Virus record (IMG/VR): IMGVR_UViG_3300011258_000929
DNA length: 64,000 nucleotides
Strand: one strand, 5' to 3'
Source: an uncultured virus (IMG/VR IMGVR_UViG_3300011258_000929)
Taxonomy: Duplodnaviria > Heunggongvirae > Uroviricota > Caudoviricetes
The notes beneath the pieces were generated by a model, which was not told the origin of the DNA, made no database searches, and saw only the letters and a program-made list of their open reading frames with translations. Of this stretch, positions 8,201 to 29,711 are shown in pieces (position 1 is the first letter of the stretch; every line of letters begins with the position of its first letter). The position numbers and the translations under genes were made by a program.

Positions 8201-8778
8201 GATTTATTTATTCTATATGTTGTAGAACCCGCAGTAACTTCTGTTGCTCTAATTCCCATTGATACTGCAACTACCGAAGTTTCAGTAATAGGCGGCCCTT
8301 TGAAAATAATAAACTTAGTGTCTTTGGGTATTTGTTTTCCAAGTCTAGGCTCAAACTCAAAGGTATCTCCCGAAACATCATCAGTTAATGTTTCAGTTAT
8401 TTTTGCAAAATGGTGCATGAGTGCATTGTCGGAATGAATAAGAACGAAGTAATCATATCCACTATCGAGAGAGTTTAGTCTAATACCCGTAGAATCATAG
8501 TCGCTGTAGCATTTAATTTTATAGCCTTCTGTATTTTCCAAGTTATTGTATTCAGTTGTAGAATTATCACTGCCTTCTAATTGTTTAATAAACGAAGGAC
8601 TGTAACTATCATCTGTAGATATAGAAGCAAATAGTCTTCGTGTATCATCCAAAGTAGAACTCTCTCTAATGATAGGATTGGTAGGACAATCAAAGTTTAC
8701 AGAATTAGTTGCGTCAGCAAGGGTTACAACTGTAGTTGGATTTATTGTATTGCCCTTTCTAATAACATGAACTGTCAT
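2224..8778 (-). CDS. Large tail-tip/baseplate hub protein (2184 aa)
   Basis: Size, Ser/Thr/Gly-rich middle, hub-like C-terminus (NEVIVYG...SIKKRGRK...RASELL...GDLVTL); position after tape measure. Confidence 0.6.
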   Translation of the reverse strand: MTVHVIRKGNTINPTTVVTLADATNSVNFDCPTNPIIRESSTLDDTRRLFASISTDDSYSPSFIKQLEGSDNSTTEYNNLENTEGYKIKCYSDYDSTGIRLNSLDSGYDYFVLIHSDNALMHHFAKITETLTDDVSGDTFEFEPRLGKQIPKDTKFIIFKGPPITETSVVAVSMGIRATEVTAGSTTYRINKSYMCSRPYFYFYNDRLDKKNELDHGTKYFLQYEDNSLISTATVNTFSDKTTFVTTSDFGFFIKDYSSYSIKASLVDNLKNLDDPRNAASSTKQTSNEGLTPVNNDFTDYNKCFLHARRPTANASSSITNGLAMLGPTRYAHYSFSPSKANDVPYVINSMVKESVGGRGGYAEAKLIDTLRIMPSKINEFDALRVRHQVQRGHFFEWFPLKATVSANVSGNEYTFSVDGDYDLKDIISLNEEVRVGDRVLRVSARDNLDTTNNTQDITFTADSRLETSKVFSSSAYTLSSGDRLYRRAFSSLNSTLLTTFPIIEGRESSLRVVISDINYEGLEATVTSSNEHKKLLTLSFNNALGEKYGSPYSALEYVTGDYVLEIERFSGEVEQIETEREYGQNMMIISGRDSYSKLISPIVNKNTLFSEDIVYSSLSPFNSLEKVGELTNGDEITFDSVTFTLDTTKTVNALNSGGGDKIYAKYMNGVVAYIGEVNGTVTDSGLGITTVTMKHMPLADGTYVTTHNEIEIWREANKNYMFNKALSADNQLSSFATSLTGSADKGLFFESGINIADDSLLVGTTTSRSTGVDTRAVGYHIHHPSSVSRKDEQFQSRLSDGGSNFETFDTVNTLMDFSILNISTVDGKTTIEIAPYLPLTLGRADHNDYDNYENTYTTIGTTTNASTSSLLVANKWLDVLPSSVSTIKSVAKEGLPIYVDSSFVGYCLQVVAYEGGGSADTYRIFLDRNATNYSSGATISVLTAGSSGLSDYVSKDSTNLYFINGEHLHGGKYVTLLNSQYGSNAGNYEKPTYYNFTRPTSAVSNSLMKTYAERFGPSIYKLNHIEKGDFNRKTQAIATNYYLRTGAGSTSEVSLKSDVNYYGGGSKLQYYSSAYKLSHGQTTLQKIPSRFQETAHRHLPIEERGTYPASGSLFWDYDIYESGHTKPRVFTSADPTQGGLIKSNYYIKDFIEQIDPKVSRMFLFATSDLLPYSRLRTDSLFYSNRDLKKFKLFLLNEPNEDEFSTKHSNYEGSGISKKILDTDYQSANIIEYDVADVSKLKTFGMMRLTELVFDSTFNQFDSENPPEKKKTINKFKYNFHTFTSAIVDSGGTTLNISSANATSITLDGTISTAISDGDIICDSNGNMIGEASGKSGATINLKNLGYGSGGGNVVLTGSDSSFPTSGGVFKAQQHTSLVTGHGDGDSTNVFTDKPHPLKGMLHGGVYTSSSFNEKMTEVFTGPTNATGSGTTVHADHYSNLVLPFTFGSASLSTDKTAHSSLYFKALDSLPYSSEVSATSDAFLQYGIFGVVLDRFNIDDGVTEPMTSSGTVFPPNDNTHLRSYTGGTLLNMGLTLRPNVFNHIYGGDNNGSSSTTSSTATDAEGIYMGFKLRVKLPAATATLDGPSGTSNYQYILNSATYPYLDYVKDLTGCYLVSEKGTEHGEVGATAAESIAVTTTISLDSQPNSINNMIPTNIAYVVSHEIDTGSTTKRHVILTDQSLPAGYYRVMQPNHTCTHSFTPNKIKLNTLSSEYTKMPYEDKTYSTTQSYLIKSGNNSSRYIDVVSGTSAGDTENIGHNEGVLSMYALVDLDGSIGVTDGSATKQWVVGRDPDVTVFQFYDSSTGEVEIGKALCISDGETTFKTSIDLETNGTNKGTDLTFGKHKETKGVISISEILTITTNNNIKGRPKRAMIGSVVSICNEAEDLINDLLEENDIEFTTSYEENYPLFLAPNYQGIDLFSAINYLVERKNKKIIYDNDKFSLTDKDTTNSDSKLFISDRNNKLEIKDFSKSKVLFDFYNEVIVYGSGFKAKRQNQKSIKKRGRKTLEVDDDTLFTQPDVDRRASELLRLHSTLNEKITVELGHLNISQVKSGDLVTLELIQENVQLNEYIILQMEHTMDGFIKMELGRFSKGLTDRFAEIQLQNKKTVAALRPKVFKDSDTSISFFESIKVKEVKLLIRNRVGGSGGSSFNIGFSQRIGFGAVIGFGSIGSTSITTILETEL

Positions 8779-12878: not shown

Positions 12879-14480
12879 TCACCCTTGAAGAATCCAATGG
12901 GTTTTAGCAGTACAAGTTCCGATGCTTCTAGCCATTATTGTTCCTTCAACCGTAACAGGGCCTTTGTCTTCCGGCATAGGCCAAGAATTACTAGTCAAGA
13001 AATAATTATCGAAAGCCAAATTGATTGCTTCACCATTGCCTTTAGTAAACGATAGTGTAATGTTACTGCCTGTTGTTTCACTAGTATTCAATAGTTCATT
13101 ATACAATTTATCATCAGTAACTAGCGCACTAAATGTCATTTCATATGTTCTTTGGGCGGGTATTGCATCCTTTACTTTTCTACTACCCATACCAACAAAT
13201 CTCTTATCAGTAAGAGTATTATTCATAGTCAAAGTAAAATTAGTGATTTTTAGTAGTTCCTGTCCGAAAATATTGATAGTTCCATCGGAGAAAAAGAAAG
13301 GTTCTCTAAATGAATCAGTAGAAGAATAATTAACAAAAGAAGTTTCATCCTCAACGCCTCTTCTAGCCTCATACGCTTCTGTTTTTCCAAGAGTGTGTAT
13401 GTTTCTACACATAGCGTTCATGCTTATTTTCAATTCCTCGTTTTCATTTGCAGTAAGAGTAAGAGTATTTACTCGTAGTCCTCTAGCAATACGAACAAAA
13501 TTAGTGTCCTCATCAGCATCAGCAGTATTTGTTCTGTAAGGATTGCTAGATGGTAACTTAGAAAACGACTGTTCCAAAGCAAAAGAAGGTAGATTGTCTC
13601 CGTCTTCTTCACCAAAAGTATATGTTATTGCATTGATAATTGACCCATCGGTATGTAGAGCAGGGGCAGTAATTACTTTCATATCGGTTTCGGAATCATG
13701 CCCTCTTACAACAGGAGGAACAATAATATTAGCAGTGCCTCCCTCAGTAAGAGTTCTATAATAAAAAGGCCCGCTATGTTCGGGAGTAACTTCAACAATA
13801 AATGAGTTTGTTGAAGAGGCAATATAATGGGCCGGACTACCTGCTGAATCAGCACTGTAAGTAATAGTAGAGCCATCAGCCGCCAAACCTTCATGGATAT
13901 TTGTAACCTTTCCAAAGAAGTAATACAACCAAGCCGCATGATTGGCGACGACACCAATATCTGCCGCACCTGCTGTTTCAATTCCCTTGTATTGATAGGT
14001 GTAGTTTCTACTACCGCCAACAAATAGATTCTGTTGCTTAGTCTCTACTTCATTATCGGGGAATGTCAATGACTCAACAATGCCCAACCAATTATCAGCA
14101 TTAAGTCTAGCAATAGAACCTGTTTTTGGTGCAGGACATGGCGCACCATATCTCTTAAGTCTAAAGAAATCAGCAGGGGAAGAACCCGTAGCATCAATTG
14201 TTCCTTGTATTTGATTAGAAAAAGTAATAGTATTATGGGTATTAGAAGTAACTCTATGTCTAGAAGTAAAGGTAGCATTGTCGTAATATTCAATAATACA
14301 ACCCACATATAGGTTTTCGACTAGACGAAATCTGTCTGTAAAATTAGTATCAATAGTAACTGTGCTAAAACCCGCTACAGTATTATCAATAGTATTGCTA
14401 TTCGATTCAATGTATAAATCAACTTCCGGTACAAATGTTACCGATGTTCCGCTTCCTAAAAATATGTTATTGTTTGTCAT
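12879..14480 (-). CDS. Major tail tube protein with extra domains
   Basis: LPSFALE...GLRVNTLTL...PFFFSDG...NFTLTMNN tube pattern; position; no sheath gene seen. Confidence 0.7.
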   Translation of the reverse strand: MTNNNIFLGSGTSVTFVPEVDLYIESNSNTIDNTVAGFSTVTIDTNFTDRFRLVENLYVGCIIEYYDNATFTSRHRVTSNTHNTITFSNQIQGTIDATGSSPADFFRLKRYGAPCPAPKTGSIARLNADNWLGIVESLTFPDNEVETKQQNLFVGGSRNYTYQYKGIETAGAADIGVVANHAAWLYYFFGKVTNIHEGLAADGSTITYSADSAGSPAHYIASSTNSFIVEVTPEHSGPFYYRTLTEGGTANIIVPPVVRGHDSETDMKVITAPALHTDGSIINAITYTFGEEDGDNLPSFALEQSFSKLPSSNPYRTNTADADEDTNFVRIARGLRVNTLTLTANENEELKISMNAMCRNIHTLGKTEAYEARRGVEDETSFVNYSSTDSFREPFFFSDGTINIFGQELLKITNFTLTMNNTLTDKRFVGMGSRKVKDAIPAQRTYEMTFSALVTDDKLYNELLNTSETTGSNITLSFTKGNGEAINLAFDNYFLTSNSWPMPEDKGPVTVEGTIMARSIGTCTAKTHWILQG

Positions 14481-15220: not shown

Positions 15221-16342
15221 TCAATCCAACATATAAACTAAATCCTTCTTACCATCAATAAGTTCCATTGCTTCTTTCTTAAGTATGTCATACTTTTCTT
15301 TAGTGCTAATATTTGCACCTGTTTCAGCAATTAGAATTGTTTGGTCGTCATGTCTAATCAACTCCGCCGCTACTAATTTAGTAGTGGCTTCATGCACAGT
15401 AGAAGGAACTCTACCGTCTCCGGCAACATAAGAAACAATTACCGAATTTTTGTTATGATAAGGATATTTCTTGTTGAAGAATATTCTACCGTCATCTCCT
15501 ATCATCCAAAAATCTCCTAGTCTTTTCATATCCTGCTTATCTGTAAATGAAACTGCAACGGTATTTGAGGTAGTCCCTGCTTTGTCAGCAATAGAAATAG
15601 TACAATCCGAACCATCTTCACCGGCCAATAAACTTGAAATGTTTACTTTTGTCCCGTCTTGTTCATCTACGCTAGCATAGAAAAAATCCGATATTGATAT
15701 TGAAGAGTCTGCTTCGGAGTTTTTAAACTTAGAGATGGTAGCACCAGTAAATTGAGAAGTTTTAGAAGGAAACTCTTCATTGATTAGATGGCAAATTTCT
15801 TGAGCAGTAGTCTTAGCACCTAGCGAATTGTTGAAAGTGTTATTAGAACTAGTACCCGATTCACCAGTATAATACAAAATCCAACTAGAACCACTATTAG
15901 GCAGTTGTAAAGTAATACTTCGCAGGTTGTTATAAGAAGAAGAATCCAAAGAAATACTCGCTTGTGCCGATGCTAGTTCTCTATAGGTGTTTCCTTCCCA
16001 TACTTTTAGACTGACTATTTTACGAACCTTCATTTGAGCCAATTGAACAAAACCAACATACCCGCCATAATATGAATGTATTGGATGCCTTGAGAAATCA
16101 AAATCCTTAAACTCATTTTTCCAAATAATCGGCCTATAAGAACGATTTATTTTTTCATCAACCATTCCTTCTATTCTTTTTATGATAGAACCGACTTGAG
16201 CCGCCGAAGGATAAGTTGATGAAGTAAAGGCAGGTACTTGTAATAAATCCGAAACTGCCCCTATATCTGTATAGAAGCCATATCCGGTAGTATAGTTTGG
16301 ACTAATGGTAGTATAGTCACTAGGGGAGGATGCTACAGGCAT
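15221..16342 (-). CDS. Head-tail adaptor-like protein with insertion
   Basis: N-terminal YTDIGAV and C-terminal VSYVAG...VPSTVHEATTKLVA adaptor pattern. Confidence 0.6.
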   Translation of the reverse strand: MPVASSPSDYTTISPNYTTGYGFYTDIGAVSDLLQVPAFTSSTYPSAAQVGSIIKRIEGMVDEKINRSYRPIIWKNEFKDFDFSRHPIHSYYGGYVGFVQLAQMKVRKIVSLKVWEGNTYRELASAQASISLDSSSYNNLRSITLQLPNSGSSWILYYTGESGTSSNNTFNNSLGAKTTAQEICHLINEEFPSKTSQFTGATISKFKNSEADSSISISDFFYASVDEQDGTKVNISSLLAGEDGSDCTISIADKAGTTSNTVAVSFTDKQDMKRLGDFWMIGDDGRIFFNKKYPYHNKNSVIVSYVAGDGRVPSTVHEATTKLVAAELIRHDDQTILIAETGANISTKEKYDILKKEAMELIDGKKDLVYMLD

Positions 16343-17652
16343 TAAATGTCATCCCCCAAAGAATCTATTGCTCGCCTCAATCTGTTTTTTCTTCGATTTA
16401 GAGATATGAAAAACTCTTGTGCTTCCTGTTTAAGTTTACCATCATTAGAATAATAAAGCGTATTTCCTTCAGAATCCTTTTTAGGATTTCCAAAAGTTAA
16501 GTGAGGTGGCAATGGATAGTTTATTGTTTGTATTCCTTCTTTTCGGCTTTTTTTACCGTACAATGTGGATGGACTGTCTTCATCCTTATCTCCTTCCAAT
16601 AGTGGCTTATCTGTCAAATGTAGTTGTTTTTGTTCTATTTGTAGAACCGGCTCTATGATTGCAGTTGCATTAGTATAGTCATCATTAAATGATTTAGCGT
16701 TCTTAGGTATCTCCAAAGTAAGGTTTTGAGCATTCAATATATCTCCCAAAGAATCTCTATAGAGATTTATAAAAAACAGTTTTACATCATTATCTGTCCC
16801 TATTTTTCTAGCAGTGCCTTTTCCTCTTTGTCTTGGTAAGTCTCTTGGGTCATAGAATGATTTCATATCATCCAAGGCAAAAGAATTAGGAATATACCTT
16901 TTGTCACTATCTAAAATACTAGACCAACCTTTGTTGTTTTCTGCCTCTAATATAAACAAATTCTTATCAGCCCCCATAGAAAACGAAGGGTCGCCATAAA
17001 TATCATCAATTACTATTTGACCCTTTCTAGTTTCTTTTTTAGACCCACCTAGCCTCAACATGGTAATTCCTGCCTCTTTTAATAATGCCATTTTAACATT
17101 TATTAGATTACACCTAATAACAATACTAGTATTTGTGTCTATAACTTCTATGTTGTCAGCAATACCTTTGAACAGTTTTCGTTCCAAGTTTTTTTCTTCC
17201 CTATCATATAGTTCTTCAAACTCTTCCATATCAACTTCGGAGATTTTAGACTTCCCCGAAACACTTAATATTTCGGGAGATAGGTTTGAAAGACCCGAAA
17301 GTTCACTGATTAGTTGAGAGTTGTCTAATTCATCAATGGAGACATTAACCTTCTCTAAATCAATAATTTCTTTTTTACCCGCTTTGGGGAGTTGTAGGTT
17401 TTTCTTTTTAACATACATATTGCTAGAAACCAATTCCGATATTTTCATTTTTATTATTGCAAGAAACTTTTCATCTAATGCAGTATAAAATTCCTCTATA
17501 TTTGTTTGTTCTATATCTGTCCTTCCGATAAGAGATACTAAGTTCCTTTCACCATCATAGTATTCTCCAAAAAGGTATTCAGCAATATATCTATCACCGA
17601 CATTTTGAAAATTAATGGTATCGTAACCACCAAGTCGTATTTCTATTGACAA
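16342..17652 (-). CDS. Hypothetical protein
   Basis: 436-aa ORF, GAGGTG SD, TTG start. Confidence 0.5.
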   Translation of the reverse strand: MSIEIRLGGYDTINFQNVGDRYIAEYLFGEYYDGERNLVSLIGRTDIEQTNIEEFYTALDEKFLAIIKMKISELVSSNMYVKKKNLQLPKAGKKEIIDLEKVNVSIDELDNSQLISELSGLSNLSPEILSVSGKSKISEVDMEEFEELYDREEKNLERKLFKGIADNIEVIDTNTSIVIRCNLINVKMALLKEAGITMLRLGGSKKETRKGQIVIDDIYGDPSFSMGADKNLFILEAENNKGWSSILDSDKRYIPNSFALDDMKSFYDPRDLPRQRGKGTARKIGTDNDVKLFFINLYRDSLGDILNAQNLTLEIPKNAKSFNDDYTNATAIIEPVLQIEQKQLHLTDKPLLEGDKDEDSPSTLYGKKSRKEGIQTINYPLPPHLTFGNPKKDSEGNTLYYSNDGKLKQEAQEFFISLNRRKNRLRRAIDSLGDDI

Positions 17653-17663
17653 TGTGAATCACC

Positions 17664-18314
17664 TCACATTAACCATTTGCCCCAAGCCGCTAATTTCTGT
17701 GCTTTTTGAGCCAAGTGTAGTCCACTTTGCGGAGGTTCATATGTCATTTGTCCTGTTTGTTGGTCTATCCAATATGGCCTACCGTAATTGTCTTGACCGC
17801 TAGGGGGTATAGGATAGCCACTATTGTTATTCATGGCTAGACCTGTTGCGCCATATGCCCCTCCTTGTTGAATTGCTTGACCCTGCATTGGCATTTGTCC
17901 CGTTGCTTGCGGCGAACTAAAGCCTTGAGATTCCAAATATTGTTGTTTCGCCATTTTTCTTTGGGCAATAACTTCTGTATTTATTGCCGCATTTAGAATA
18001 TTAGTCATGTCCGAATTTATGTTTTCTTGAGTAATAGTGTTTAATGAGTTTTTACAGTCGCCACTAATTTTTATGTTTCCGGTAGTAGAGTCTTGAACGA
18101 ACTCCAAATTAGAAAGCATTTTACTTACTACTCTTTCAGTGACATCTTCCATTAGTTTTTCCATCGTTGAAAGGAATTGTTCCCCATGATATTGAAAGAA
18201 CTCCTCTACATGGTTTTCTTGTAGAGATAAAAGGTTGTTCATTGATTTAAAATTAGTGTCATTCTGTGCTTGAACTGCACCCATAACTGCTTTATTGCTT
18301 GTTCCAAATACCAT
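17664..18314 (-). CDS. Gln-rich helical protein with WW-like C-terminal segment
   Basis: PPSGQDNYGRPYWIDQQTGQMTYEPP. Confidence 0.45.
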   Translation of the reverse strand: MVFGTSNKAVMGAVQAQNDTNFKSMNNLLSLQENHVEEFFQYHGEQFLSTMEKLMEDVTERVVSKMLSNLEFVQDSTTGNIKISGDCKNSLNTITQENINSDMTNILNAAINTEVIAQRKMAKQQYLESQGFSSPQATGQMPMQGQAIQQGGAYGATGLAMNNNSGYPIPPSGQDNYGRPYWIDQQTGQMTYEPPQSGLHLAQKAQKLAAWGKWLM

Positions 18315-18318
18315 AATA

Positions 18319-18945
18319 TCATTCTCCTTTTTCTATGAGCGTGTTCATTCGTTCACTAGCCAACCTTATTTCGATAGATAACCTTACTACTTCTTCGAGT
18401 GTTGTTTCTTCTCCTTTTACATTAGGTGGTTTTATTTGCCATCCAACTCCAATAAGCGAAACAACATCAGCCTTTGATAGAGTGGTGAGCGCACCCTTAG
18501 ATAAAACTTGGGGCATTCTAGGCTTAGGAATAAACGCCTTAAAGTCCAATCCATGTTCGTCAGCAAGTATTTGTTGTTGTAGCATTTCTAATTGTTTATG
18601 ATGAGTTGCATGTTTAGGGCAGTATGTTCCTCTCATTGGCCTTCCTTTAGTAACATGACTAAGAGGAATAGGTGGCCGCATATAATCTCCATTTTCCCAA
18701 ATGTGGTGTGCGCCACATACAATACATCTGTCTTTTAGATTAAACTTCCAACCGTATTTAATAAAAAGGAAACTTTTCTTTTCCGCAGTTAATACTCTAG
18801 ACATTTCTTTTAGTTTCTTCTTTGGTTTTATCTCTTTAAATGTATATTCATCTATTGGCCCTGCGGCTCTAGCCTGTGCTAGTGGTGGTAAAAAAGCCAC
18901 CCCAACTGATGAGTTTGCGCCTATTAGTGTCGGTTGTTGAAACAT
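18319..18945 (-). CDS. Zn-finger protein
   Basis: CIVC...YCPKH. Confidence 0.5.
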   Translation of the reverse strand: MFQQPTLIGANSSVGVAFLPPLAQARAAGPIDEYTFKEIKPKKKLKEMSRVLTAEKKSFLFIKYGWKFNLKDRCIVCGAHHIWENGDYMRPPIPLSHVTKGRPMRGTYCPKHATHHKQLEMLQQQILADEHGLDFKAFIPKPRMPQVLSKGALTTLSKADVVSLIGVGWQIKPPNVKGEETTLEEVVRLSIEIRLASERMNTLIEKGE

Positions 18946-18947
18946 AT

Positions 18948-19610
18948 TTAATACTCCTTAATCATCGTCATTACGCCTTTATAGACCATTTCCGGTTGAG
19001 ATTTAGCCGATACAATGTATTTGAAAGTTGGTATTCCTTTATCATTTAGTCTTTGCATTCCATATTTAAAGGGTTCATAAATTGAATGTTTTGTCATGTC
19101 GTCGCCTTCTTTGTATTTTTCACCCCAAATATCAAACTTATTAGCCCAAATACTAATGGCTAAAGGATATTCGGAGTTCTTCTTTTTTTTACCATCATCC
19201 CATCTATCGTTACAAACGCAATCTACCAAATACTTCCATGCTAATTGGTGGTCTAAATTAGCAGGAGAATCTAAATGTCTATGGTCTATTACAAAAATAA
19301 TATATTTTACTTTTCTAATTCTAATGTCTTTCACCCATTCCTTCCAATAGATTGCTTCTCCTCCAATATCAGCAGTCTTAAGTGTATGAGTTTCACCGTC
19401 TAGTTTCACTGTCTTTCTAGTTGCTCTTTCTTTACCAACGGTTCTTTGTTTTATTTCGGGAACTTCTCCCTTGGTTCTAAGTTGGTGATGTAAAGTTGTT
19501 TTACCGACCATTGTTGCCCCATAAATACCAAAATTAATAGCGTGTATTCTTTTGTAAAATGCGACAGTGGCCTCAATAACAACGACTGCGAAACCTGCTA
19601 GAACAGACAA
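18948..19610 (-). CDS. Small Ras-superfamily (Arf/Sar-like) GTPase
   Basis: G1 GATMVGKTT, G2 RTVG, G3 DIGGE, IIFVID, G4 NKFD, G5 SAK; hydrophobic N-terminal helix. Confidence 0.85.
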   Translation of the reverse strand: MSVLAGFAVVVIEATVAFYKRIHAINFGIYGATMVGKTTLHHQLRTKGEVPEIKQRTVGKERATRKTVKLDGETHTLKTADIGGEAIYWKEWVKDIRIRKVKYIIFVIDHRHLDSPANLDHQLAWKYLVDCVCNDRWDDGKKKKNSEYPLAISIWANKFDIWGEKYKEGDDMTKHSIYEPFKYGMQRLNDKGIPTFKYIVSAKSQPEMVYKGVMTMIKEY

Positions 19611-19832
19611 TCAATGACCCCCCAATATTGACTTAGTACCTTCAATAAGCCATCCCATAATATTAATGTCAAAAACACCCATAATATTACCAATAAGTAG
19701 TGCTGATAGTGTCGCACAACTTCCCCAAAACCACATTCTCATTTTAATAAAAAACATGTCTGCCGAATGCGCCCTACTTTGGTTGTATGCGTAGTCGGAT
19801 TCGGAAAAACCCATTATGTCTCCTAAGACCAT
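19611..19832 (-). CDS. Small membrane protein
   Basis: Hydrophobic WFWGSCATLSALLIGNIMGVF segment; GAGGTG SD. Confidence 0.6.
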   Translation of the reverse strand: MVLGDIMGFSESDYAYNQSRAHSADMFFIKMRMWFWGSCATLSALLIGNIMGVFDINIMGWLIEGTKSILGGH

Positions 19833-19841
19833 TTAACCACC

Positions 19842-20238
19842 TCATTGAAGGGTGGCTAAGAAGTCAGCACTTACTGTATCGTTATCATAAGAAGTGGCTA
19901 GAGGTATTCTTGTAGTTTGATTTTCTTTTTGAAAGTTTTTAAGAGATTCCTGCATTTTAGACCTTTGCTGTTCGTCTTTAGCAATTCTTTCCCAGTATGA
20001 CTTGATTCTTCTATCCAGTAGCCACATTTCTATTTTGTCATTTAAGGCCAAATCAAATAGTGCTTTCATAACCATAACCGCACCAACAGTAATCAAACCA
20101 AATAATATTCCGTGCATTAGGATAGTATAAGGAAAGTTCAATCCGAACTTTGCATAAGCCCAAACATTAGCACCGCTAATTGTACCAACAAAAAGAATAG
20201 TCATTATCAACCTTGTATCGTGATTAAGAGCAGGAATA
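19842..20238 (-). CDS. Two-TM membrane protein with C-terminal coiled coil (start uncertain)
   Basis: Two hydrophobic segments; SD followed by ATT rather than ATG. Confidence 0.55.
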
Positions 20239-20247
20239 ATAACCACC

Positions 20248-20547
20248 TCAATTGAACTCAACTGATACATGAGCCGTTGAAGACCCTGCTTCTGTGACTT
20301 CTAGAAACAGTCCACCTGTTGCTAGAACACCGTGCATGTCGTATTCTATATTGTATTGACCGTTAGTTGTATTATGTATTCTAGCCAATTCTGTTCCAGT
20401 ATTATCAGTTCCATCAAATACCTTGATTGTAACTGCGTCATGACCGGCAATAACAATATTAGCATGAATGCTCTTAAGCCTACATTGAGTCCTAGAAACG
20501 ATTGCACTAGCACCTAATACTCCACTACTTCTGCTTACATCTGCCAT
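20248..20547 (-). CDS. Small beta-rich putative virion protein
   Basis: Composition; position downstream of capsid genes. Confidence 0.4.
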   Translation of the reverse strand: MADVSRSSGVLGASAIVSRTQCRLKSIHANIVIAGHDAVTIKVFDGTDNTGTELARIHNTTNGQYNIEYDMHGVLATGGLFLEVTEAGSSTAHVSVEFN

Positions 20548-21611: not shown

Positions 21612-22958
21612 TCAAGCCACATTTGTAATTTTGCCTTGACCCTTAAAGAAAGAACAACCAACTTCACCAATTGTTCGGTAAAGTGCTTGGTTTCCTAGAC
21701 GACCAACACCAAATGGGTTTCCGTTTGCCATACCGTCTTCAAAGTATTGAGTCGGCTTAAGAACAGACAACCATAGATGGTCGGTATCAAGGAAAAGCAA
21801 ATCGCTAAGTCCACTATCGGAAGAGTTCATTGTTGAAGTCATATCCTTACAAGGAATAAGGGGAATGTCGTAGTAGGTTGCCACACGGAAACCAACTTCA
21901 GCACCCTTAATTCCACGAACACCATTATGTGTCGGGATAACTTCCTTTCTATCCATGAATCTTTCTTGGCTTTGTAGCAAATCAGCAATTGCTTGAATAG
22001 TGTCATATCCAGTAAGAATACACTTAGGAGAGCCACCTGCAATTCTCAAGTTGCGAATCATGTTGTTAAGCAAAGTAAGAGTCAATGGTCGAACCGACGA
22101 AGCCGCATAAGAAGAGTTGAAGTCTACTTCTGCATCAAGGAAAGAACCCGCAGTAAATCTCTCATCACCGTAGATTTGAGCGAGTGCGTTTGTAGCATCA
22201 TTCATTGTATCAGTCATAAGAACTCCGCCATCAGCCGCTAGAAGTTCTGCTCGACTTGAAACGACCTTCAAAAGAGAAGTATAGTTTCTTTCAATATTTG
22301 CTAGAGCCGAAACTTCACCATAAACTTGAACAGGCATAAGGAGCATCTTGTTTTGTGCTTCTGCGTGTGCTTTACCCATGTCTTCACGAATAATAGCCCG
22401 AATATCTCCGAGTCCATCATCAATTTGAGCCATTTCCATAGCAAGTTCGGAAATATCGAACTGATGTGCAATAGTCTTAGGACTCATAAAGAGTTGAGCG
22501 TAAGTTGGAGACATTGAACCAAGTCCATCAGCCGCAGTAGAAAGTCCTGCGTTTTCGGGAACGCCACCAATTTCATCAGCGTGTGGGTTTGCGCCACCAA
22601 GTCCGTTAGCGGAAGAACCGTCACCAGTAATATCCACTGCAAGTTTAGAATCCGAACCACCAAAAGGTCGGCTCTTTAGTATTCTCCAACCGGATGAAGT
22701 GTAAGGTCGCTTTGATAGCATAGCGAGAGCATTAACTTCTCGGTTTAGCATAGACCAAACTTTTTGTCCGTATAGTTGATTATACATTCCAGTTGTACTA
22801 CCAATACCAGTTACGCCGGATGCTCCTGCGTCTGCAATATCGTGTGCAGTGTGTAGTCCTTGAACTGCACCTGCTTGTTTCAATAGGGAGTTACCGCCAA
22901 AGGCAGGTAGTCCATATGTCGCCGCTTCTAAATCTCTTATTGTGTTAATATATCCCAT
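21612..22958 (-). CDS. Major capsid protein (HK97 fold)
   Basis: Follows prohead protease; 448 aa; LSKRPY and VATYYDIPLI...LLFLDTDHL patterns. Confidence 0.8.
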   Translation of the reverse strand: MGYINTIRDLEAATYGLPAFGGNSLLKQAGAVQGLHTAHDIADAGASGVTGIGSTTGMYNQLYGQKVWSMLNREVNALAMLSKRPYTSSGWRILKSRPFGGSDSKLAVDITGDGSSANGLGGANPHADEIGGVPENAGLSTAADGLGSMSPTYAQLFMSPKTIAHQFDISELAMEMAQIDDGLGDIRAIIREDMGKAHAEAQNKMLLMPVQVYGEVSALANIERNYTSLLKVVSSRAELLAADGGVLMTDTMNDATNALAQIYGDERFTAGSFLDAEVDFNSSYAASSVRPLTLTLLNNMIRNLRIAGGSPKCILTGYDTIQAIADLLQSQERFMDRKEVIPTHNGVRGIKGAEVGFRVATYYDIPLIPCKDMTSTMNSSDSGLSDLLFLDTDHLWLSVLKPTQYFEDGMANGNPFGVGRLGNQALYRTIGEVGCSFFKGQGKITNVA

Positions 22959-22968
22959 TTAATTCACC

Positions 22969-24159
22969 TCAAATGTTTCCGCCGACTGCTTTATGAATAT
23001 CGCCCCAAGACATTTCAGCAATCTCTTCTGTAGAGAAAACCTTTGTCGTTGTTGCGGCTTCTGTAGCCTTGCGAATGTTGTTCTTTTCTGTTGTAAGAGA
23101 TTTGCGTAGTTCAGCAAACTCATTTGTAAGTGCGGTAATTTCTGCTTGAGCATCATATTCCGACTTAGCAACCATAGTTTCTCTATGAGCAGTTTCTTGT
23201 GCAAATCTCTTAGCAAAAGTTCCTGCTAGGTTATCGTAAGCCAACTTTTCTAGTTGTTCTGCTCGGAATTGGGCATATGCCTTCTCGATGTTTTCAGCAC
23301 TCAAGTTAAGAGTGTTAAACTCGGAGTTGTCAAATGCCTTTGAAACCATACCTTCTTTCTTTGCTTGAAGTCCTGCTTGTTCCATAGGCTTTCCTGCTCC
23401 ACCTAGGTTTTCATCATCGTTACCGTCAAGAGTAGTGGCTTTCTTTTCTTCATCCATATACTCCATAGATTCTTCTTCGACTTCCATCATTTCTTCTTCC
23501 ATTTTCTCATTCAATGGGTGGCCTTGTCCCTTATCCATTGATGGTTCTTCTTCTTCTTTACGCAGGGTATTGACTTCCTCAAGAAGAGTGTCAAGTTCTG
23601 CCAGTGCTTTTTCTAATTTGCTCATATTTTTGTCCTCCTTTAATATATCGAACTTCGCTTCGGGATTGATTCCTTTTTCACATATGGTTACTTCATGTAG
23701 TTCGAGTTTGCTTATTTCGCTATACTCTCCCAATTCTTCATGGCGCTTCTTCACTTTTTGTAAAGCCTGTCCCCCTATGCTAAAACTCCTCAATGTTCCT
23801 TTGCGAATACTTCTGTTTATCTCTTTGGCTTTTTCAATATCATCTCTTAATTTTATTACTACAAAAAACCCGACATCATCTACTTCTGTTTTCCATAGTT
23901 TGCCGCTTGAATCTCTATATGATTGAATGACTTCTCCGACTTGAACATTTGAATGGTTTGTCATTACATTTCTAAACTTGTTCTTTTCCATGAACTTTAC
24001 TACTGCTTCATTTAGTGCCTTAAGAGTAATTAAGTCGTTTTGTTTATCCACCATTTCAATAGAAGCATAACCACCAATCATTAATTCGTCGCTTTTTGCT
24101 TTAATGATTGTGAAGTCATTTTCCTTTTGAGCAATAATGGTGTTTAACATATTGCTCAA
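22969..24159 (-). CDS. Prohead protease fused to scaffold
   Basis: IGGYAS...DKQND...NH...SFSIGG...LHEVT...NPEA HK97-type protease, acidic coiled C-terminal half. Confidence 0.85.
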   Translation of the reverse strand: MSNMLNTIIAQKENDFTIIKAKSDELMIGGYASIEMVDKQNDLITLKALNEAVVKFMEKNKFRNVMTNHSNVQVGEVIQSYRDSSGKLWKTEVDDVGFFVVIKLRDDIEKAKEINRSIRKGTLRSFSIGGQALQKVKKRHEELGEYSEISKLELHEVTICEKGINPEAKFDILKEDKNMSKLEKALAELDTLLEEVNTLRKEEEEPSMDKGQGHPLNEKMEEEMMEVEEESMEYMDEEKKATTLDGNDDENLGGAGKPMEQAGLQAKKEGMVSKAFDNSEFNTLNLSAENIEKAYAQFRAEQLEKLAYDNLAGTFAKRFAQETAHRETMVAKSEYDAQAEITALTNEFAELRKSLTTEKNNIRKATEAATTTKVFSTEEIAEMSWGDIHKAVGGNI

Positions 24160-24179: not shown

Positions 24180-26705
24180 CTATATAACTTGTTCTGTATT
24201 ATTAGGTAAATCAATGTCAATATACTTGTCTTTATAGATATTCCAAACGCCTTCATCGCTCTCTTTATCTACAGGTTTTTGCTCATAGCCAGTCCAAGCG
24301 AGCCACATTTTTTTACCATCTACGGGAATAACTCGGAAATGTATTTTAGTTTCAAACTTATTACCTTGAATAATGTATTCGTGATATCCGTGTCTTTGGA
24401 CTCCTATCTCTACAGTACCTTCATCTATTAATTGTCCCTTTTCTATATTCTTAGATATTTTAGCAGGGTATTTGTTTGCTTTACCAAACAAAGAGAATAT
24501 ATCATCATCATTAGGAAGGTCAATAAGCCAAGCGAGAGTTTCTCCTTTATGTTTAATGATAAAGTCTAAATTGTCGTCTTTTCTAGAATATATTTTGAAC
24601 TCGGACATTTCTTTTGTTATTTCTGTTTCATCTATGTGCAACTTACCATTAGAAAAAGAAATACCCTCTCTTTGATTAGCCCAGTTTTTTACATCTTTGT
24701 CCGAAGCCTTTGATAGTACCTTTAGCATTTTAGAAGAGTCACTATCAAAAAGGGTTTCATATTCGCTTGGCATTTTTTCTCTCAAATACAAGTGTACTTC
24801 TTTAGGAGTCTGTGGGCCTTTTTCTTTTATTCTGTTTTTTATAGCAACAGTAATTTTTCCTTGTATTGTTTTCAATGTTAATTCTGCTTCTTCTTTCCAC
24901 ATATCTAAGTCGGCTAGTGCGTTTTTAGACATTAAATTAGATTCTTCAAATCCATAAATTGTAAAACCATCCATTGACTTAGCAATCAATACTGCTTCGC
25001 CATGTATGTTATCAGTAATGGTGATTCCCTTTTTCAACGCCTCTATTTTATATTTTAAAGAAGGCTTAGTATTCTTAGATAACATCTCTAAAGTAACTAT
25101 TTTATCGGGAGTCTCTACTTCGGGGACTTCAATAACATTAGCGGAATAGAGAGTGTACCTACCATCGGATTCCTTGACTTCATCTACCTTTACTCTAATA
25201 ATGTCTCCGACTTTAACATTGGTTTTAGTATTCAATGCCTTTCCGACATTCATGTATAGAGTACCATTTAATTCAACAATGTGCTTTCCTTCTTCTAGAG
25301 ATGGCCCTGCTCCTAAAGTGTAAGAGTATAAGTTTGATTTTGTAGTTTTCTTATCTAGAACAATCATATCCAAATCTATAAACTTCTTCCATTTAATCCA
25401 TTTAGGATTTTTCTTAGTACCTATAAAATAAGTAGATGTTAAATCCTTTATGACAACTCCTTCGGAAGTCGGCATCTCCATAATCTCCTTAGCATACTCT
25501 TCTATGTCTTTTAGAGAGTCGGCAGTTCTAGTGTCTTTCTTAGAAGGGAAGTGTAGGGCATCCGATGTCTTGGCTGAATAGTTGTTAAAAAGAATATTGA
25601 TTCTTTGTTCTAGTTCCTCATCCGTCATGTTCTTTTCATCATGTCTCATTATGTCAAAAACATGTGCCTTAAGTTTGGCATTAGGATATTTATTTTTGAA
25701 TACATGTGAGATAGTGTCGGCTCTATGTAGAGCGTCTTCACCGTCAAATAATATTAGTTCAGCATCTAGTATGCAATCCCCATAAGACTTCTTCTTCATT
25801 TCAGTAACTTGGTCGGGACACTTATCAGTAATATCCTTTTCATTATATGAATAGATTTTAACTTGATTGTCTATTTTATGTATTTGTATTCTCATACCAT
25901 CATACTTTTCTTGAACTAAGTAGTCGCCGGAAAAACCTTGTAGTTCCTGCATGTCTTCTATGTCGAATATTCTATACATTGGTTTGTTTGGTATGATGAA
26001 GTGAGATATTGATTTTTCTTCTGTGGATTTTTTCTCGGCTTTTTTAAGTTCCACTTGGGTAAGAGCATTCCACTTTTCTTCGGAGTATTTTTCTATGAAC
26101 TTCTCTTGTAGTAGTTTTAATGCCTGTTTGAAACTAGACTCTACCTTTTTACTGTCTTTATTATCACCATAATGTTCTATTACAAACAATGGTATGTCTT
26201 TAACTTGAAGGTCTAATCCTTCCAAACCATCGGTAATGTCATCTCCTTGAAACTCCATTGATTCATAGAAGTCTTCGGGTAGTGCGTCATCGTCGGAACG
26301 AATAGCATAATGAATAAACTTTACAAATGTGCTTTTGTCCGACAATAGGCTCTCTAAAACATTACCTTTGAACTTTTTAGCGAATGGGTCATTAACATTT
26401 TCCGAGTCAAAACGCATTTGTTTAATTGCCTCATAGACAATTTTTGCACTACCACTAGACGGACTTCCTGCATCATCAGCCTCTACATGGCGTTCATCAA
26501 GGTATTCTTTTATCTCTTTACCTAGAGGGGATATAGAATCATACGCTTCTTTTATTTCTTCTAGTGCGTTTCTCCAACGACCCCCGTATTCTTTAGGGTC
26601 AGTTCGTGCTGATAAATAGGCTACTCGTACCTTTTCAAAAAGTGAAAGTATTTCATTTGAGATTGGGTTGCTGTCCTTCTCAAACATTAAGCCAGTGGTT
26701 GCCAT
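24180..26705 (-). CDS. lig: ATP-dependent DNA ligase with N- and C-terminal extensions
   Basis: EKYDGMRIQ (KxDG), LDAEL, FDIM, EGVVIK, WIKWK motifs. Confidence 0.9.
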   Translation of the reverse strand: MATTGLMFEKDSNPISNEILSLFEKVRVAYLSARTDPKEYGGRWRNALEEIKEAYDSISPLGKEIKEYLDERHVEADDAGSPSSGSAKIVYEAIKQMRFDSENVNDPFAKKFKGNVLESLLSDKSTFVKFIHYAIRSDDDALPEDFYESMEFQGDDITDGLEGLDLQVKDIPLFVIEHYGDNKDSKKVESSFKQALKLLQEKFIEKYSEEKWNALTQVELKKAEKKSTEEKSISHFIIPNKPMYRIFDIEDMQELQGFSGDYLVQEKYDGMRIQIHKIDNQVKIYSYNEKDITDKCPDQVTEMKKKSYGDCILDAELILFDGEDALHRADTISHVFKNKYPNAKLKAHVFDIMRHDEKNMTDEELEQRINILFNNYSAKTSDALHFPSKKDTRTADSLKDIEEYAKEIMEMPTSEGVVIKDLTSTYFIGTKKNPKWIKWKKFIDLDMIVLDKKTTKSNLYSYTLGAGPSLEEGKHIVELNGTLYMNVGKALNTKTNVKVGDIIRVKVDEVKESDGRYTLYSANVIEVPEVETPDKIVTLEMLSKNTKPSLKYKIEALKKGITITDNIHGEAVLIAKSMDGFTIYGFEESNLMSKNALADLDMWKEEAELTLKTIQGKITVAIKNRIKEKGPQTPKEVHLYLREKMPSEYETLFDSDSSKMLKVLSKASDKDVKNWANQREGISFSNGKLHIDETEITKEMSEFKIYSRKDDNLDFIIKHKGETLAWLIDLPNDDDIFSLFGKANKYPAKISKNIEKGQLIDEGTVEIGVQRHGYHEYIIQGNKFETKIHFRVIPVDGKKMWLAWTGYEQKPVDKESDEGVWNIYKDKYIDIDLPNNTEQVI

Positions 26706-29486: not shown

Positions 29487-29711
29487 TCACCACTTGTTTT
29501 CGGTTTTTCTTCTCTTCTTAACAGGTAGTTGTACTACATCGGGTGTATCTGCTGAACCTCTAGATGGCTTATGGCTTGTATCGGGAGGCAAACCACCAAC
29601 TGAATAGTCTCTATTCTTAGTAGTGTTTCTATCCTCGGCGGCTCTTTTAGAACGAACCTGTGCCAGTTCTTTTGCTAGTCTTCTTTCTTTCTGTGCTATG
29701 TCTTCTGTCAT
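29487..29711 (-). CDS. Small basic hypothetical protein
   Basis: Coupled to portal stop. Confidence 0.45.
   Translation of the reverse strand: MTEDIAQKERRLAKELAQVRSKRAAEDRNTTKNRDYSVGGLPPDTSHKPSRGSADTPDVVQLPVKKRRKTENKW

What the first reader, a model, noticed from the sequence alone, without database searches (positions are those of the whole stretch)
17664..20238. Arf/Sar-like small GTPase operon with membrane proteins inside the virion module
Seen: five tightly coupled genes encoding a 2-TM protein, a 1-TM protein, a GTPase with all G1-G5 motifs (Arf-like RTVG and DIGGE, hydrophobic N-terminal helix), a Zn-finger protein and a Gln-rich protein, between head and neck genes. I recognised no holin or endolysin in the window. 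Known: Arf/Sar GTPases remodel membranes through an N-terminal amphipathic helix, and a small GTPase (ArvA) drives extracellular vesicle formation in Haloferax. Inference: a GTPase-controlled membrane remodelling module for lysis, egress or a membrane assembly site.
Basis: partly seen in the sequence, partly recalled or inferred. Interest (0 to 1): 0.85.

Follow-up and report, generated by a model that had tools for sequence, protein, structure and literature searches.

The report
Membrane-anchored Arf-like GTPase cassette, magrovirus
A tailed virus of the abundant ocean archaea Marine Group II carries its own very divergent Arf-type GTP switch with a membrane anchor, always in one block with two small membrane proteins, a zinc-binding protein and a glutamine-rich protein; the block is undescribed and is an untested candidate for how such viruses act on, or leave through, the host membrane.

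Summary
Five minus-strand genes (17664-20270) encode a 2-TM protein, a 1-TM protein, a 220-aa small GTPase with invariant G1-G5 motifs, a Cys/His protein and a Gln-rich protein. They lie between the major capsid and tail tube genes of a magrovirus-like archaeal virus.

All five genes occur in the same order in 49 of 49 close viral contigs with enough flank. The same architecture recurs in two further viral lineages whose GTPases are only about 30% identical.

The GTPase belongs to the Arf/Arl/G-alpha side of the Ras superfamily by family profile and by fold ranking. It fails every Pfam threshold on its own. Its N-terminal helix is transmembrane-like rather than amphipathic, and Glu replaces the catalytic Gln.

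No cellular homologue was found, and no paper I could search describes it. This scan has reported the same cassette on other DNA (eight earlier notes).

Function is untested. My best reading is a late, membrane-bound, GTP-switched complex for egress (about 0.35). Membrane-linked assembly and host takeover are live rivals.

The parts
19842..20270 (-). Gene A: small membrane protein with two hydrophobic segments (about residues 21-39 and 47-77) and a charged C-terminal tail. The likely true start is GTG at 20246.
   Evidence: ORF. Hydropathy (2 segments in 53 of 55 homologues). Conservation pattern. Sequence around the start. Only a weak PHROG 'membrane protein' hit (E 0.0049).
19611..19832 (-). 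Gene B: 73-aa protein with one hydrophobic segment (about residues 33-63) and a conserved N-terminal region. It is the best conserved protein of this region.
   Evidence: 1 segment in 50 of 50. Median identity to the window is 80% over loci L012-L080, against 73% for the capsid protein. No family hit.
18948..19610 (-). Gene C: 220-aa small GTPase of the Arf/Arl/G-alpha-like branch, with an N-terminal membrane anchor.
19545..19610 (-). N-terminal hydrophobic helix of the GTPase (residues 1-22), followed by basic residues (YKRIH).
   Evidence: AF2 helix 3-22. KD 1.96 to 2.14, Eisenberg mean 0.71, moment 0.14. G6, F7, A8 and E13 invariant in the close family.
19497..19520 (-). G1 / P-loop GATMVGKT (residues 31-38).
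   Evidence: Invariant G31, G36, K37, T38. G31, G36 and K37 invariant across 22 distant relatives.
19356..19370 (-). G3 / switch II DIGGE (residues 81-85), with Glu at the position of the catalytic Gln.
   Evidence: Glu in 77 of 77 close-clade ORFs. In the 80 second-clade loci: Gln 39, Glu 20, Asp 9, motif not matched by my pattern 12.
19131..19142 (-). G4 NKFD (residues 157-160), the guanine specificity motif.
   Evidence: N157, K158 and D160 invariant. N157 and K158 invariant across the wide family.
19002..19010 (-). G5 SAK (residues 201-203).
   Evidence: S201 and A202 invariant, K203 in at least 90%.
18319..18945 (-). Gene D: 208-aa soluble Cys/His protein with no known family.
   Evidence: No Pfam, PHROG or NCBIfam hit. 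Profile-profile match to the gene downstream of the GTPase in the second lineage (probability 96.7%, E 3e-10). HMM hit in the third lineage (E 1e-8).
18610..18726 (-). Putative zinc site of D: C74-x2-C77-x2-H80 ... C109-x2-H112.
   Evidence: All five residues invariant in 16 homologues of 51-90% identity. Metal binding is inferred, not shown.
17664..18314 (-). Gene E: 216-aa Gln-rich soluble protein with a conserved helical core, a low-complexity Q/G stretch and a conserved C-terminus.
   Evidence: Profile-profile match to the second-lineage counterpart (92.7%, E 4e-7; the cross-control of D against E-like gave 66%). HMM hit in the third lineage (E 3e-8).
17724..17822 (-). WW-like C-terminal segment of E (residues about 165-197, GYPIPPSG..GRPYWID..YEPP). 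Present only in this lineage.
   Evidence: Pfam WW below threshold: E 0.017 for the window protein; 8 of 18 members match at E <= 0.1, best 2.1e-4, cut-off 26.9 bits. Absent from the second-lineage proteins.

Best explanation
The five genes encode one membrane-associated, GTP-switched complex made late in infection by a magrovirus-type tailed archaeal virus.

Shown by sequence analysis:
- C is a bona fide small GTPase of the Arf/Arl/G-alpha-like branch.
- Its nucleotide-binding residues are under strict selection.
- It carries an N-terminal hydrophobic helix followed by basic residues.
- A and B are small integral membrane proteins; D and E are soluble.
- The set travels together in three deep viral lineages.

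Inferred:
- The helix anchors the G domain on the cytoplasmic face of the host membrane (N-out, C-in by the positive-inside rule), next to A and B.
- In the GTP state the G domain recruits or activates the soluble partners D (zinc-binding) and E (Gln/Gly-rich).
- The assembled complex acts on the host membrane at the end of the cycle, most likely to time or execute virion release. It would fill the role that holin-type systems play in phages, in a host without murein.
- GTP loading or hydrolysis would be the trigger or clock.

The confidence given is for the egress role. That the cassette is a real membrane-bound GTPase unit I hold at about 0.85.
For: GTPase identity:
- Motifs invariant in 25 close and 22 distant relatives.
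- AF2 model with pLDDT 75.5 and a Ras-like fold.
- The family profile's best solved matches are mini-Gq (E 8e-15), the Asgard Arf GerdArfR1 8oun (7e-13), then Arl3, Arl1, Arl8 and Arf1.
- In the re-ranking of 1000 Foldseek hits, ranks 1-16 are all Arf-family GTP forms at Z 12.4-11.5, with Rab/Rheb at 11.2 or below.
- Seven outer relatives pass Pfam's Arf threshold over nearly its full length.
- W92 sits seven residues after the G3 catalytic position, as in the mini-Gq alignment, and is nearly invariant.

Membrane link:
- Anchor on the GTPase and TM segments in A and B.

Unit character:
- All five genes in order in 49 of 49 close loci with enough flank.
- The same order of TM protein, 1-TM protein, GTPase, D-like and Q/G/M-rich protein in a second lineage (266 viral stretches) and a third (4 contigs). 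In the second lineage the block is not beside recognisable head genes.

Timing:
- It lies in the long same-strand run of virion genes.

The gap it could fill:
- No lysis enzyme or holin family among 54 window proteins scanned against Pfam, nor among the 13 cassette-region proteins scanned against PHROGs.
- A 2024 review states that the egress players of head-tailed archaeal viruses are 'completely uncharacterized' (PMC10791045, passages).

Precedent:
- The small GTPase ArvA is needed for vesicle formation in Haloferax (PMC10927574, passages).
Against: - No experiment of any kind bears on this.
- B (80%) and the GTPase (71%) are as conserved as the capsid protein (73%). That is unlike holins and fits a partner of conserved virion or host parts.
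- No lytic enzyme is present in the block.
- The anchor is transmembrane-like, so the reversible Arf membrane toggle probably does not apply.
- The catalytic Gln is Glu in 77 of 77 close relatives and varies among Q, E and D in the second lineage, so hydrolysis may be slow or atypical.
- In this lineage the block sits among head and tail genes, which suits an assembly role equally well.
- D gave no usable model (pLDDT 54.5).
- A and B of different lineages share topology and position but no detectable sequence similarity (hhalign 5% and 1%).
Confidence: 0.35

Rival explanations
1. Membrane-linked assembly or maturation platform. The anchored GTPase with A and B marks a site on the host membrane, and D and E help procapsid assembly, DNA packaging or head-tail joining there. 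GTP state acts as a checkpoint.
For: In this lineage the block lies between the capsid gene and the tail tube gene. Conservation of B and the GTPase equals that of the capsid protein, as expected for partners of conserved virion parts.
Against: In the second lineage no head gene is recognisable within 7 kb of the block. Tailed viruses are not known to need a membrane site (general knowledge). Relatives tolerate unrelated genes inserted between B and C or between C and D.
Confidence: 0.25
2. Host takeover or superinfection exclusion at the membrane. The complex modifies host envelope functions (transport, receptor display, entry of competing viruses) rather than releasing progeny.
For: Three membrane-associated proteins in a non-enveloped virus. 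Phage exclusion proteins are often small membrane proteins (general knowledge).
Against: Such genes are usually variable and accessory. Here the set is present in every sufficiently covered relative (49 of 49) and in three deep lineages, and it lies in the late gene run.
Confidence: 0.15
3. SR-beta-like membrane-protein biogenesis aid. The anchored Arf-like GTPase helps insert viral membrane proteins (A, B or others) into the host membrane.
For: The architecture of N-terminal transmembrane anchor plus Arf-like G domain is that of SR-beta. SR-beta structures score Z 11.7 and 11.2. Pfam SRPRB gives weak hits for the window protein (18 bits) and 6 of 22 relatives.
Against: SRPRB is below its threshold of 25 bits for the window protein. 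No SR-alpha or SRX-like partner was recognised. A virus with so few membrane proteins hardly needs its own targeting factor.
Confidence: 0.08
4. The GTPase-like protein no longer cycles nucleotide and serves only as a structural scaffold.
For: Glu replaces the catalytic Gln in 77 of 77 close relatives.
Against: The P-loop, G3 Asp/Gly, G4 NKxD and G5 SA are invariant over the whole family. Strict conservation of the guanine-specificity motif is hard to explain without nucleotide binding.
Confidence: 0.05

Closest known systems
Arf family small GTPases (eukaryotic Arf/Arl/Sar1; Asgard ArfR such as GerdArfR1, PDB 8OUM/8OUN)
   Same: Same fold and same branch of the superfamily. The family profile hits GerdArfR1, Arl3, Arl1, Arl8 and Arf1 at E 1e-12 to 1e-9. 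Arf-family GTP forms fill ranks 1-16 of the structural re-ranking. It has a DxGG switch II, a Trp seven residues after the catalytic position, and an N-terminal membrane-seeking helix.
   Different: - 13-18% identity to the solved Arf chains.
- The window protein is below Pfam's Arf, Ras, Roc and SRPRB thresholds.
- The helix is transmembrane-like, not amphipathic. The amphipathic helix with the interswitch toggle is called the defining Arf feature (bioRxiv 10.1101/2024.02.28.582541, passages).
- Glu replaces the catalytic Gln.
- It is encoded by a virus of a prokaryote.
SR-beta (signal recognition particle receptor beta subunit)
   Same: An Arf-like G domain fixed to the membrane by an N-terminal transmembrane helix. 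Structural Z of 11.7 (2fh5_B) and 11.2 (7obq_v).
   Different: The Pfam SRPRB score of 18 bits is below the cut-off of 25. No SR-alpha-like partner was seen. The gene context is viral, not the secretory pathway.
ArvA-ArvB-ArvC vesiculation operon of Haloferax volcanii (PMC10927574)
   Same: An archaeal small GTPase with an N-terminal hydrophobic helix, in an operon that includes a zinc-ribbon protein, acting on the cell membrane.
   Different: D and its counterparts hit no DUF2072/ArvC or DUF2073/ArvB model: 0 of 13 proteins scanned. ArvA is cellular and described as having an amphipathic helix. I held no ArvA sequence, so direct similarity was not tested.
Rab/Ras/Ran GTPases of giant eukaryotic viruses (for example mimivirus Rab, PDB 5xc5)
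   Same: Virus-encoded small GTPases. 5xc5 scores Z 11.0.
   Different: All viral matches in BFVD are from giant viruses of eukaryotes (the 50 rows shown). Those are recent captures of host Rab/Ras genes (general knowledge). This one has no close cellular relative and belongs to a tailed virus of archaea.
Phage holin-endolysin lysis cassettes
   Same: Small membrane proteins encoded in the late gene run of a tailed virus.
   Different: No endolysin domain, no holin family hit, a GTPase at the centre, and far higher sequence conservation than is usual for holins.

Membership tests
Ras-superfamily small GTPase (P-loop, TRAFAC class) | G1 GxxxxGK[ST], G2 Thr, G3 DxxG, G4 NKxD and G5 SA motifs in order | tested here: met
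   GATMVGKT, T57, DIGGE, NKFD, SAK. Invariant in 25 close relatives. G31, G36, K37, D81, G84, N157 and K158 invariant in 22 distant relatives.
Ras-superfamily small GTPase (P-loop, TRAFAC class) | Ras-like alpha/beta fold of about 170-200 residues | tested here: met
   AF2 pLDDT 75.5, pTM 0.75. VIA Z up to 12.4 over 150-175 aligned residues. Foldseek E about 1e-7 to Ras/Rab.
Ras-superfamily small GTPase (P-loop, TRAFAC class) | Binds and hydrolyses GTP | not testable with these tools
   Needs biochemistry.
Arf family (Arf/Arl/Sar, ArfR) | Scores above the curated threshold of Pfam Arf (PF00025, 22.3 bits) | tested here: not met
   The window protein has no Arf hit. Of the 19 relatives scanned one by one, none of the 7 from the viral lineages has an Arf hit, while 7 of the 12 outer metagenomic relatives pass (24.5-57.2 bits).
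Arf family (Arf/Arl/Sar, ArfR) | Closest to Arf-family members by profile and by structure | tested here: met
   Profile of 22 relatives against PDB: mini-Gq, GerdArfR1, Arl3, Arl1, Arl8 and Arf1 lead. VIA second look: ranks 1-16 are Arf family, though only about 1 Z unit above Rab.
Arf family (Arf/Arl/Sar, ArfR) | Switch II DxGGQ with catalytic Gln (His in Sar1, recalled) | tested here: not met
   DIGGE: Glu in 77 of 77 close relatives. Gln in 39 of the 80 second-lineage loci.
Arf family (Arf/Arl/Sar, ArfR) | N-terminal amphipathic helix that toggles with the interswitch on GTP binding (stated as the defining feature in bioRxiv 10.1101/2024.02.28.582541) | tested here: not met
   An N-terminal helix is present, but mean hydrophobicity is 0.71 and moment 0.14, which is transmembrane-like. 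The interswitch toggle itself is not testable here.
SR-beta | N-terminal transmembrane anchor plus Arf-like G domain | tested here: met
   (Z 11.7 to 2fh5_B).
SR-beta | Scores above Pfam SRPRB threshold (25 bits) and pairs with an SR-alpha SRX domain | tested here: not met
   18 bits. No SRX or longin-like partner recognised in A, B, D or E.
ArvABC vesiculation system | GTPase in an operon with DUF2073 (ArvB) and DUF2072 zinc-ribbon (ArvC) proteins | tested here: not met
   No DUF2072 or DUF2073 hit in the window proteins or in 12 D/D-like proteins of two lineages.
ArvABC vesiculation system | Sequence similarity of the GTPase to ArvA (HVO_3014) | not tested
Holin-endolysin lysis cassette | Small TM protein next to a cell-wall-degrading enzyme, or a hit to a known holin family | tested here: not met
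   No such Pfam, PHROG or NCBIfam hit for A-E, and none among 41 further window proteins scanned against Pfam.

The most novel reading that the evidence does not exclude
Tailed viruses of Marine Group II archaea encode their own GTP-timed egress machine. A membrane-anchored Arf-like switch, together with two small membrane proteins and two soluble effectors, opens or remodels the host membrane to release virions. This would be the first identified release system of head-tailed archaeal viruses, and the first small-GTPase-driven one in any virus of prokaryotes.
Probability: 0.3. Interest if true: 0.9.

Novelty: new variant of a known kind. Interest (0 to 1): 0.7.

Why it matters
- Marine Group II archaea and their magroviruses are among the most abundant microbe-virus pairs of the surface ocean. 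How head-tailed archaeal viruses leave their hosts is an acknowledged blank (PMC10791045, passages).
- A strictly conserved, virus-specific, membrane-anchored Arf-like GTPase with fixed partners gives that question a concrete set of genes that can be expressed, mutated and assayed.
- It extends virus-encoded small GTPases from giant eukaryotic viruses to a virus of prokaryotes.
- It adds a deep, non-Asgard, non-eukaryotic branch to the Arf-like GTPases, which bears on how membrane-acting GTP switches evolved.

Tried and rejected
- **Complex prediction (GTPase 23-220 with D, GTP and Mg).** The queue was full on most hand-ins (first). Nothing was folded, so binding of D to the GTPase is untested.
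- **Structure of D.** pLDDT 54.5, pTM 0.25, unusable; no fold search was made.
- **ESM Atlas.** No usable hit for E. For D only scores of 0.86 or below with no common family.
- **NCBIfam.** Only the generic small_GTP domain, below threshold, for the GTPase; nothing for A, B, D or E.
- **A and B across lineages.** No detectable similarity (hhalign 5% and 1%). Only position and topology are shared.
- **ArvC/ArvB relation of D.** None found.
- **Neck genes.** p373 and p173 gave nothing against PDB sequences. p373 hits only PHROG 17057, of unknown function.
- **tblastn of the GTPase against the 'phages' collection.** No match.
- **Whole genome.** None is held for this window.
- **Alignment-based locus searches.** They failed for want of a conserved stretch; I went on with the smaller alignment A3.
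- **Genomic context of the outer, Arf-positive relatives.** Not found in metagenome or viral contigs, and their contigs are short. Whether they are viral or cellular is open.
- **Expression.** No RNA holder is listed. Two runs labelled metatranscriptomic, but flagged by the tool as probably DNA, hold contigs 90-95% alike. These bridge the D|C, C|B and B|A junctions. I draw nothing from this.
- **Literature search.** Set to 'any term' by mistake, and it gave nothing useful.
- **Not run.** PADLOC was not run. A phylogeny against reference Arf, Sar, SR-beta, G-alpha, Rag, MglA and ArvA sequences was not made, because no tool supplied those sequences.
Full report
**What is there.** Positions 17664-20270 hold five ORFs on the minus strand, packed with gaps of 0-9 nt.
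- A: 19842-20270, 142 aa.
- B: 19611-19832, 73 aa.
- C: 18948-19610, 220 aa. Its TTG start directly follows B's TGA.
- D: 18319-18945, 208 aa.
- E: 17664-18314, 216 aa.

GTG at 20246, just after the stop of the preceding gene, is therefore the likely start.

The five genes belong to a long same-strand run of virion genes:
- terminase, 34608-36029;
- portal, 29711-31357;
- an ATP-dependent DNA ligase domain protein, 24180-26705;
- prohead protease, 22969-24159;
- major capsid protein, 21612-22958;
- three small ORFs;
- the five genes;
- four more ORFs;
- a tail tube protein, 12879-14480;
- a 2184-aa ORF.

A TFIIB zinc ribbon protein at 59543-60382 marks an archaeal virus. One homologue of C is 'hypothetical protein QKV95_gp088 [Poseidoniales virus YSH_150918]' at 69% identity. 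That virus is the type member of Aoguangviridae, order Magrovirales (PMC10768690, passages).

**The GTPase is real.** C carries GATMVGKT, RT57VG, DIGGE, NKFD and SAK. In 25 homologues of 65-91% identity the following are invariant: G31, G36, K37, T38, T39, T57, D81, G83, G84, E85, N157, K158, D160, S201 and A202. In 22 relatives down to 21% identity, G31, G36, K37, D81, G84, D109, N157 and K158 are still invariant.

The AF2 model (pLDDT 75.5, pTM 0.75) is an N-terminal helix (residues 3-22) on a Ras-like alpha/beta core.

On its own the protein is below every curated threshold:
- Pfam MMR_HSR1, 21.5 bits against 21.9;
- Roc, 21.4 against 27;
- Ras, 18.8 against 21.6;
- SRPRB, 18 against 25;
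- NCBIfam small_GTP, 28.9 against 42.5;
- best PDB sequence match, Rab33B at E 0.004.

**Which kind of GTPase.** A profile of the 22 diverse relatives finds, among solved chains, an engineered G-alpha (mini-Gq, E 8e-15). Next come 8oun (7e-13), Arl3 (9e-13), and then Arl1, Arl8 and Arf1. 8OUN and 8OUM are GerdArfR1, an Asgard Arf (bioRxiv 10.1101/2024.02.28.582541, passages).

Structure comparison against 48,161 representative chains gives these scores:
- Lokiarchaeal RagA-like GTPase, Z 12.3;
- Arf6, 12.0 and 11.8;
- SR-beta, 11.7;
- G-alpha, 11.2;
- mimivirus Rab, 11.0;
- Sar1, 10.8.

A second look at Foldseek's best 1000 chains puts only Arf-family GTP forms at ranks 1-16: ARF3 at 12.4, GerdArfR1 at 12.3, then Arf1, Arl8b, Arf6, Arl1, Arl2, Arl6 and Arl3. 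Gtr1 follows at 11.5 and Rab/Rheb at 11.2 or below. The lead is about one Z unit. It is consistent but small.

Seven outer relatives (P0158, P0183, P0195, P0196, P0186, P0170, P0192) pass Pfam's Arf threshold over nearly the whole model. None of the relatives from the viral lineages does.

A Trp seven residues after the catalytic position of switch II (W92) is nearly invariant. It aligns with the Trp of G-alpha in the printed alignment. That Arf also has it is recalled, not tested.

I therefore place the family on the Arf/Arl/SR-beta/G-alpha side of the superfamily, as a very divergent branch. It is not a member of Arf proper.

**What departs from Arf.**
- *The helix.* The ArfR preprint calls an N-terminal amphipathic helix that toggles with the interswitch the defining Arf feature. 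Here residues 1-18 have Eisenberg mean hydrophobicity 0.71 and moment 0.14, and the Kyte-Doolittle mean is 1.96-2.14. That is the signature of a transmembrane anchor, followed by YKRIH. In the second lineage the segment is less hydrophobic (KD about 1.0-1.3) and Gly/Ala-rich. Some outer relatives have clear TM segments and some have amphipathic ones.
- *The catalytic residue.* It is Glu in 77 of 77 close-clade ORFs. In the 80 second-lineage loci it is Gln in 39, Glu in 20 and Asp in 9, and my pattern did not match the remaining 12. One relative has DIGGH.

**The partners.**
- A has two hydrophobic segments in 53 of 55 homologues, and B has one in 50 of 50.
- D has none in 59 of 62, and E none in 53 of 53.
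- D has invariant C74, C77, H80, C109 and H112, that is CxxCxxH...CxxH. It has no family hit and no usable model.
- E has 24 Gln, a conserved helical core and a conserved C-terminus. The C-terminus resembles the second half of a WW domain only weakly: 8 of 18 members match at E <= 0.1, the best is 2.1e-4, and all are below threshold.

**Conservation as a unit.** In IMG/VR, 230 stretches encode a relative of C. The best 80 are 70-99% identical. Of these 80 loci, 49 extend at least 1600 nt upstream and 2600 nt downstream of C, and all 49 hold A, B, C, D and E in that order. Every missing gene among the other 31 loci lies at a contig end.

Median identity to the window over loci L012-L080:
- B, 80%;
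- capsid protein, 73%;
- GTPase, 71%;
- E, 63%;
- protease, 62%;
- D, 60%;
- A, 56%.

A search of 1.84 billion representative proteins with the family profile found only 78 proteins at E <= 0.001. Most are fragments of the same family. No classical GTPase reached that level.

The full-length distant hits define further lineages (tree):
- the window clade with P0121, support 100/99;
- a P0135/P0133 clade, 100/98;
- a P0136 lineage, 100/100.

All of these together are set apart at 99/99 from 11 long-branched outer singletons.

The P0135/P0133 clade has 266 matching stretches in viral contigs of up to 109 kb. It shows the same order:
- a 143-190-aa TM protein;
- a 73-81-aa 1-TM protein;
- the GTPase (238-242 aa);
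- a 300-330-aa D-like protein;
- a 207-225-aa Q/G/M-rich protein;
- an extra 84-88-aa 2-TM protein.

Profile-profile comparison supports D with D (96.7%, E 3e-10) and E with E (92.7%, E 4e-7). It does not support A with A (5%) or B with B (1%). The cross-controls gave 66% (D against E-like) and 6.5%.

In that lineage the neighbours are GP88-like, D12 methyltransferase and HTH genes, not recognisable head genes. The P0136 lineage (4 contigs) repeats the five-gene order.

In one genome per species of GTDB, the pattern-based scan found only three loci. One is a 106-kb contig of a Poseidoniales single-cell assembly that carries the whole cassette. The other two are short contigs binned to bacteria. 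I saw no cellular homologue, but that scan rests on a single peptide pattern.

**What it most likely does.**

*Shown:* a nucleotide-binding small GTPase under strict selection, with a membrane-seeking N-terminus. It is always encoded with two small membrane proteins and two soluble orphan proteins, in the late gene run.

*Inferred:* the five form a complex on the cytoplasmic face of the host membrane, and its activity is switched by GTP.

*For an egress role (0.35):*
- The virus has no envelope, yet it invests in three membrane proteins.
- No lysis function is recognisable among 54 window proteins scanned against Pfam, nor among the 13 cassette-region proteins scanned against PHROGs.
- The release machinery of head-tailed archaeal viruses is unknown (PMC10791045).
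- An archaeal small GTPase, ArvA, is required for vesicle formation and sits in an operon with a zinc-ribbon protein (PMC10927574).

*Against it:*
- The conservation is capsid-like, which is unlike holins.
- There is no lytic enzyme.
- The fixed anchor removes the Arf-type membrane toggle.
- The catalytic residue is atypical.
- In this lineage the block sits among head and tail genes.

The rivals are membrane-linked assembly (0.25), host takeover or exclusion (0.15), an SR-beta-like insertion aid (0.08) and a nucleotide-dead scaffold (0.05).

**Novelty.**
- The term 'magrovirus' occurs in 22 papers of the searchable library.
- In the main texts of PMC5434244, PMC11706807 and PMC10160649 the words GTPase and GTP occur 0 times.
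- The held supplements of the first two have no such entry. For PMC11706807 that covers only 8,917 characters, so its large tables were not visible.
- The ICTV profile of Aoguangviridae does not mention it.
- 'Archaeal virus' with 'small GTPase' and 'egress' finds 4 papers. The relevant review speaks only of the host's ArvA/OapA.
- Some JGI records auto-name homologues 'GTPase SAR1 family protein', so the domain has been machine-labelled.
- In BFVD all 50 listed viral structural matches are from giant viruses of eukaryotes.
- Subscription journals are outside the library.

This scan has already reported the same cassette on other genomes (eight notes). I reached the same reading independently before opening them. 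From them I took the identification of 8OUN as an Asgard ArfR, which I then checked in the preprint.

**Verdict.** This is a new, virus-specific, membrane-anchored variant of the Arf-like GTPases at the centre of an undescribed five-gene cassette. Its function is open.

Noticed in passing
window minus strand, ORF starts near 47149, 46516, 45836, 45349, 44886, 43069, 42739, 42152, 41355, 32947, 32534, 32154, 31756, 27737: At least 14 otherwise unrelated small ORFs begin with the same N-terminal heptapeptide, M-x-W-x-x-I-[LI]-K. The codons differ synonymously between copies, so the constraint is on the protein. Four of them also share the upstream DNA 'aggagag(a/g)(t/c)tacaatg'. Second-lineage loci show a looser form (AWxLLK). 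This could be a shared targeting or processing leader; I do not know.
   Followed up: partly
L006-L080: between genes B and C, or C and D, of the cassette (for example L009:6661-7588, L070:5150-6000, L029:675-1258): The 80 close loci show 39 junction insertions of 230-930 bp. The inserted ORFs (68-191 aa, diverse bodies) nearly all start with the same MW[KQF][DN]ILK tag. The cassette junctions are hot spots for these small genes, while the five cassette genes stay intact.
   Followed up: partly
window 24180-26705 (-): An 841-aa protein with an ATP-dependent DNA ligase domain (Pfam E 4.5e-30) sits between the portal and the prohead protease. [quoted passage not shown]
   Followed up: partly
L099:9329-9595, L083:9378-9638, L088:9312-9566, L161:5770-6015: In the second lineage a sixth small gene (81-88 aa, two hydrophobic segments) directly follows the E-like gene. 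The window has no counterpart. There a variable 436-aa ORF (16342-17652) follows E; it is found in only 4 of 80 close loci.
   Followed up: no
L161 (contig of 106,262 bp titled uncultured Candidatus Poseidoniales archaeon, single-cell assembly): A whole second-lineage cassette lies on a 106-kb contig of a Poseidoniales single-cell genome. This fits a virus caught inside its host cell and supports the host assignment. Two other hits are short contigs binned to Parvibaculum and Maricaulis, probably mis-binned.
   Followed up: no
window 60364-60942 (+) and 62150-62704 (+): A ThiF-family (E1-like) protein (Pfam E 2.6e-15) and, nearby, a weak below-threshold JAB-domain hit (E 7e-4). This may be a ubiquitin-like modifier pair in the early or replication arm.
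   Followed up: no
window 2224-8778 (-): A 2184-aa ORF downstream of the tail tube gene with no Pfam hit at E <= 0.001. From its position it may be a tape measure or tail fibre protein; this was not examined.
   Followed up: no
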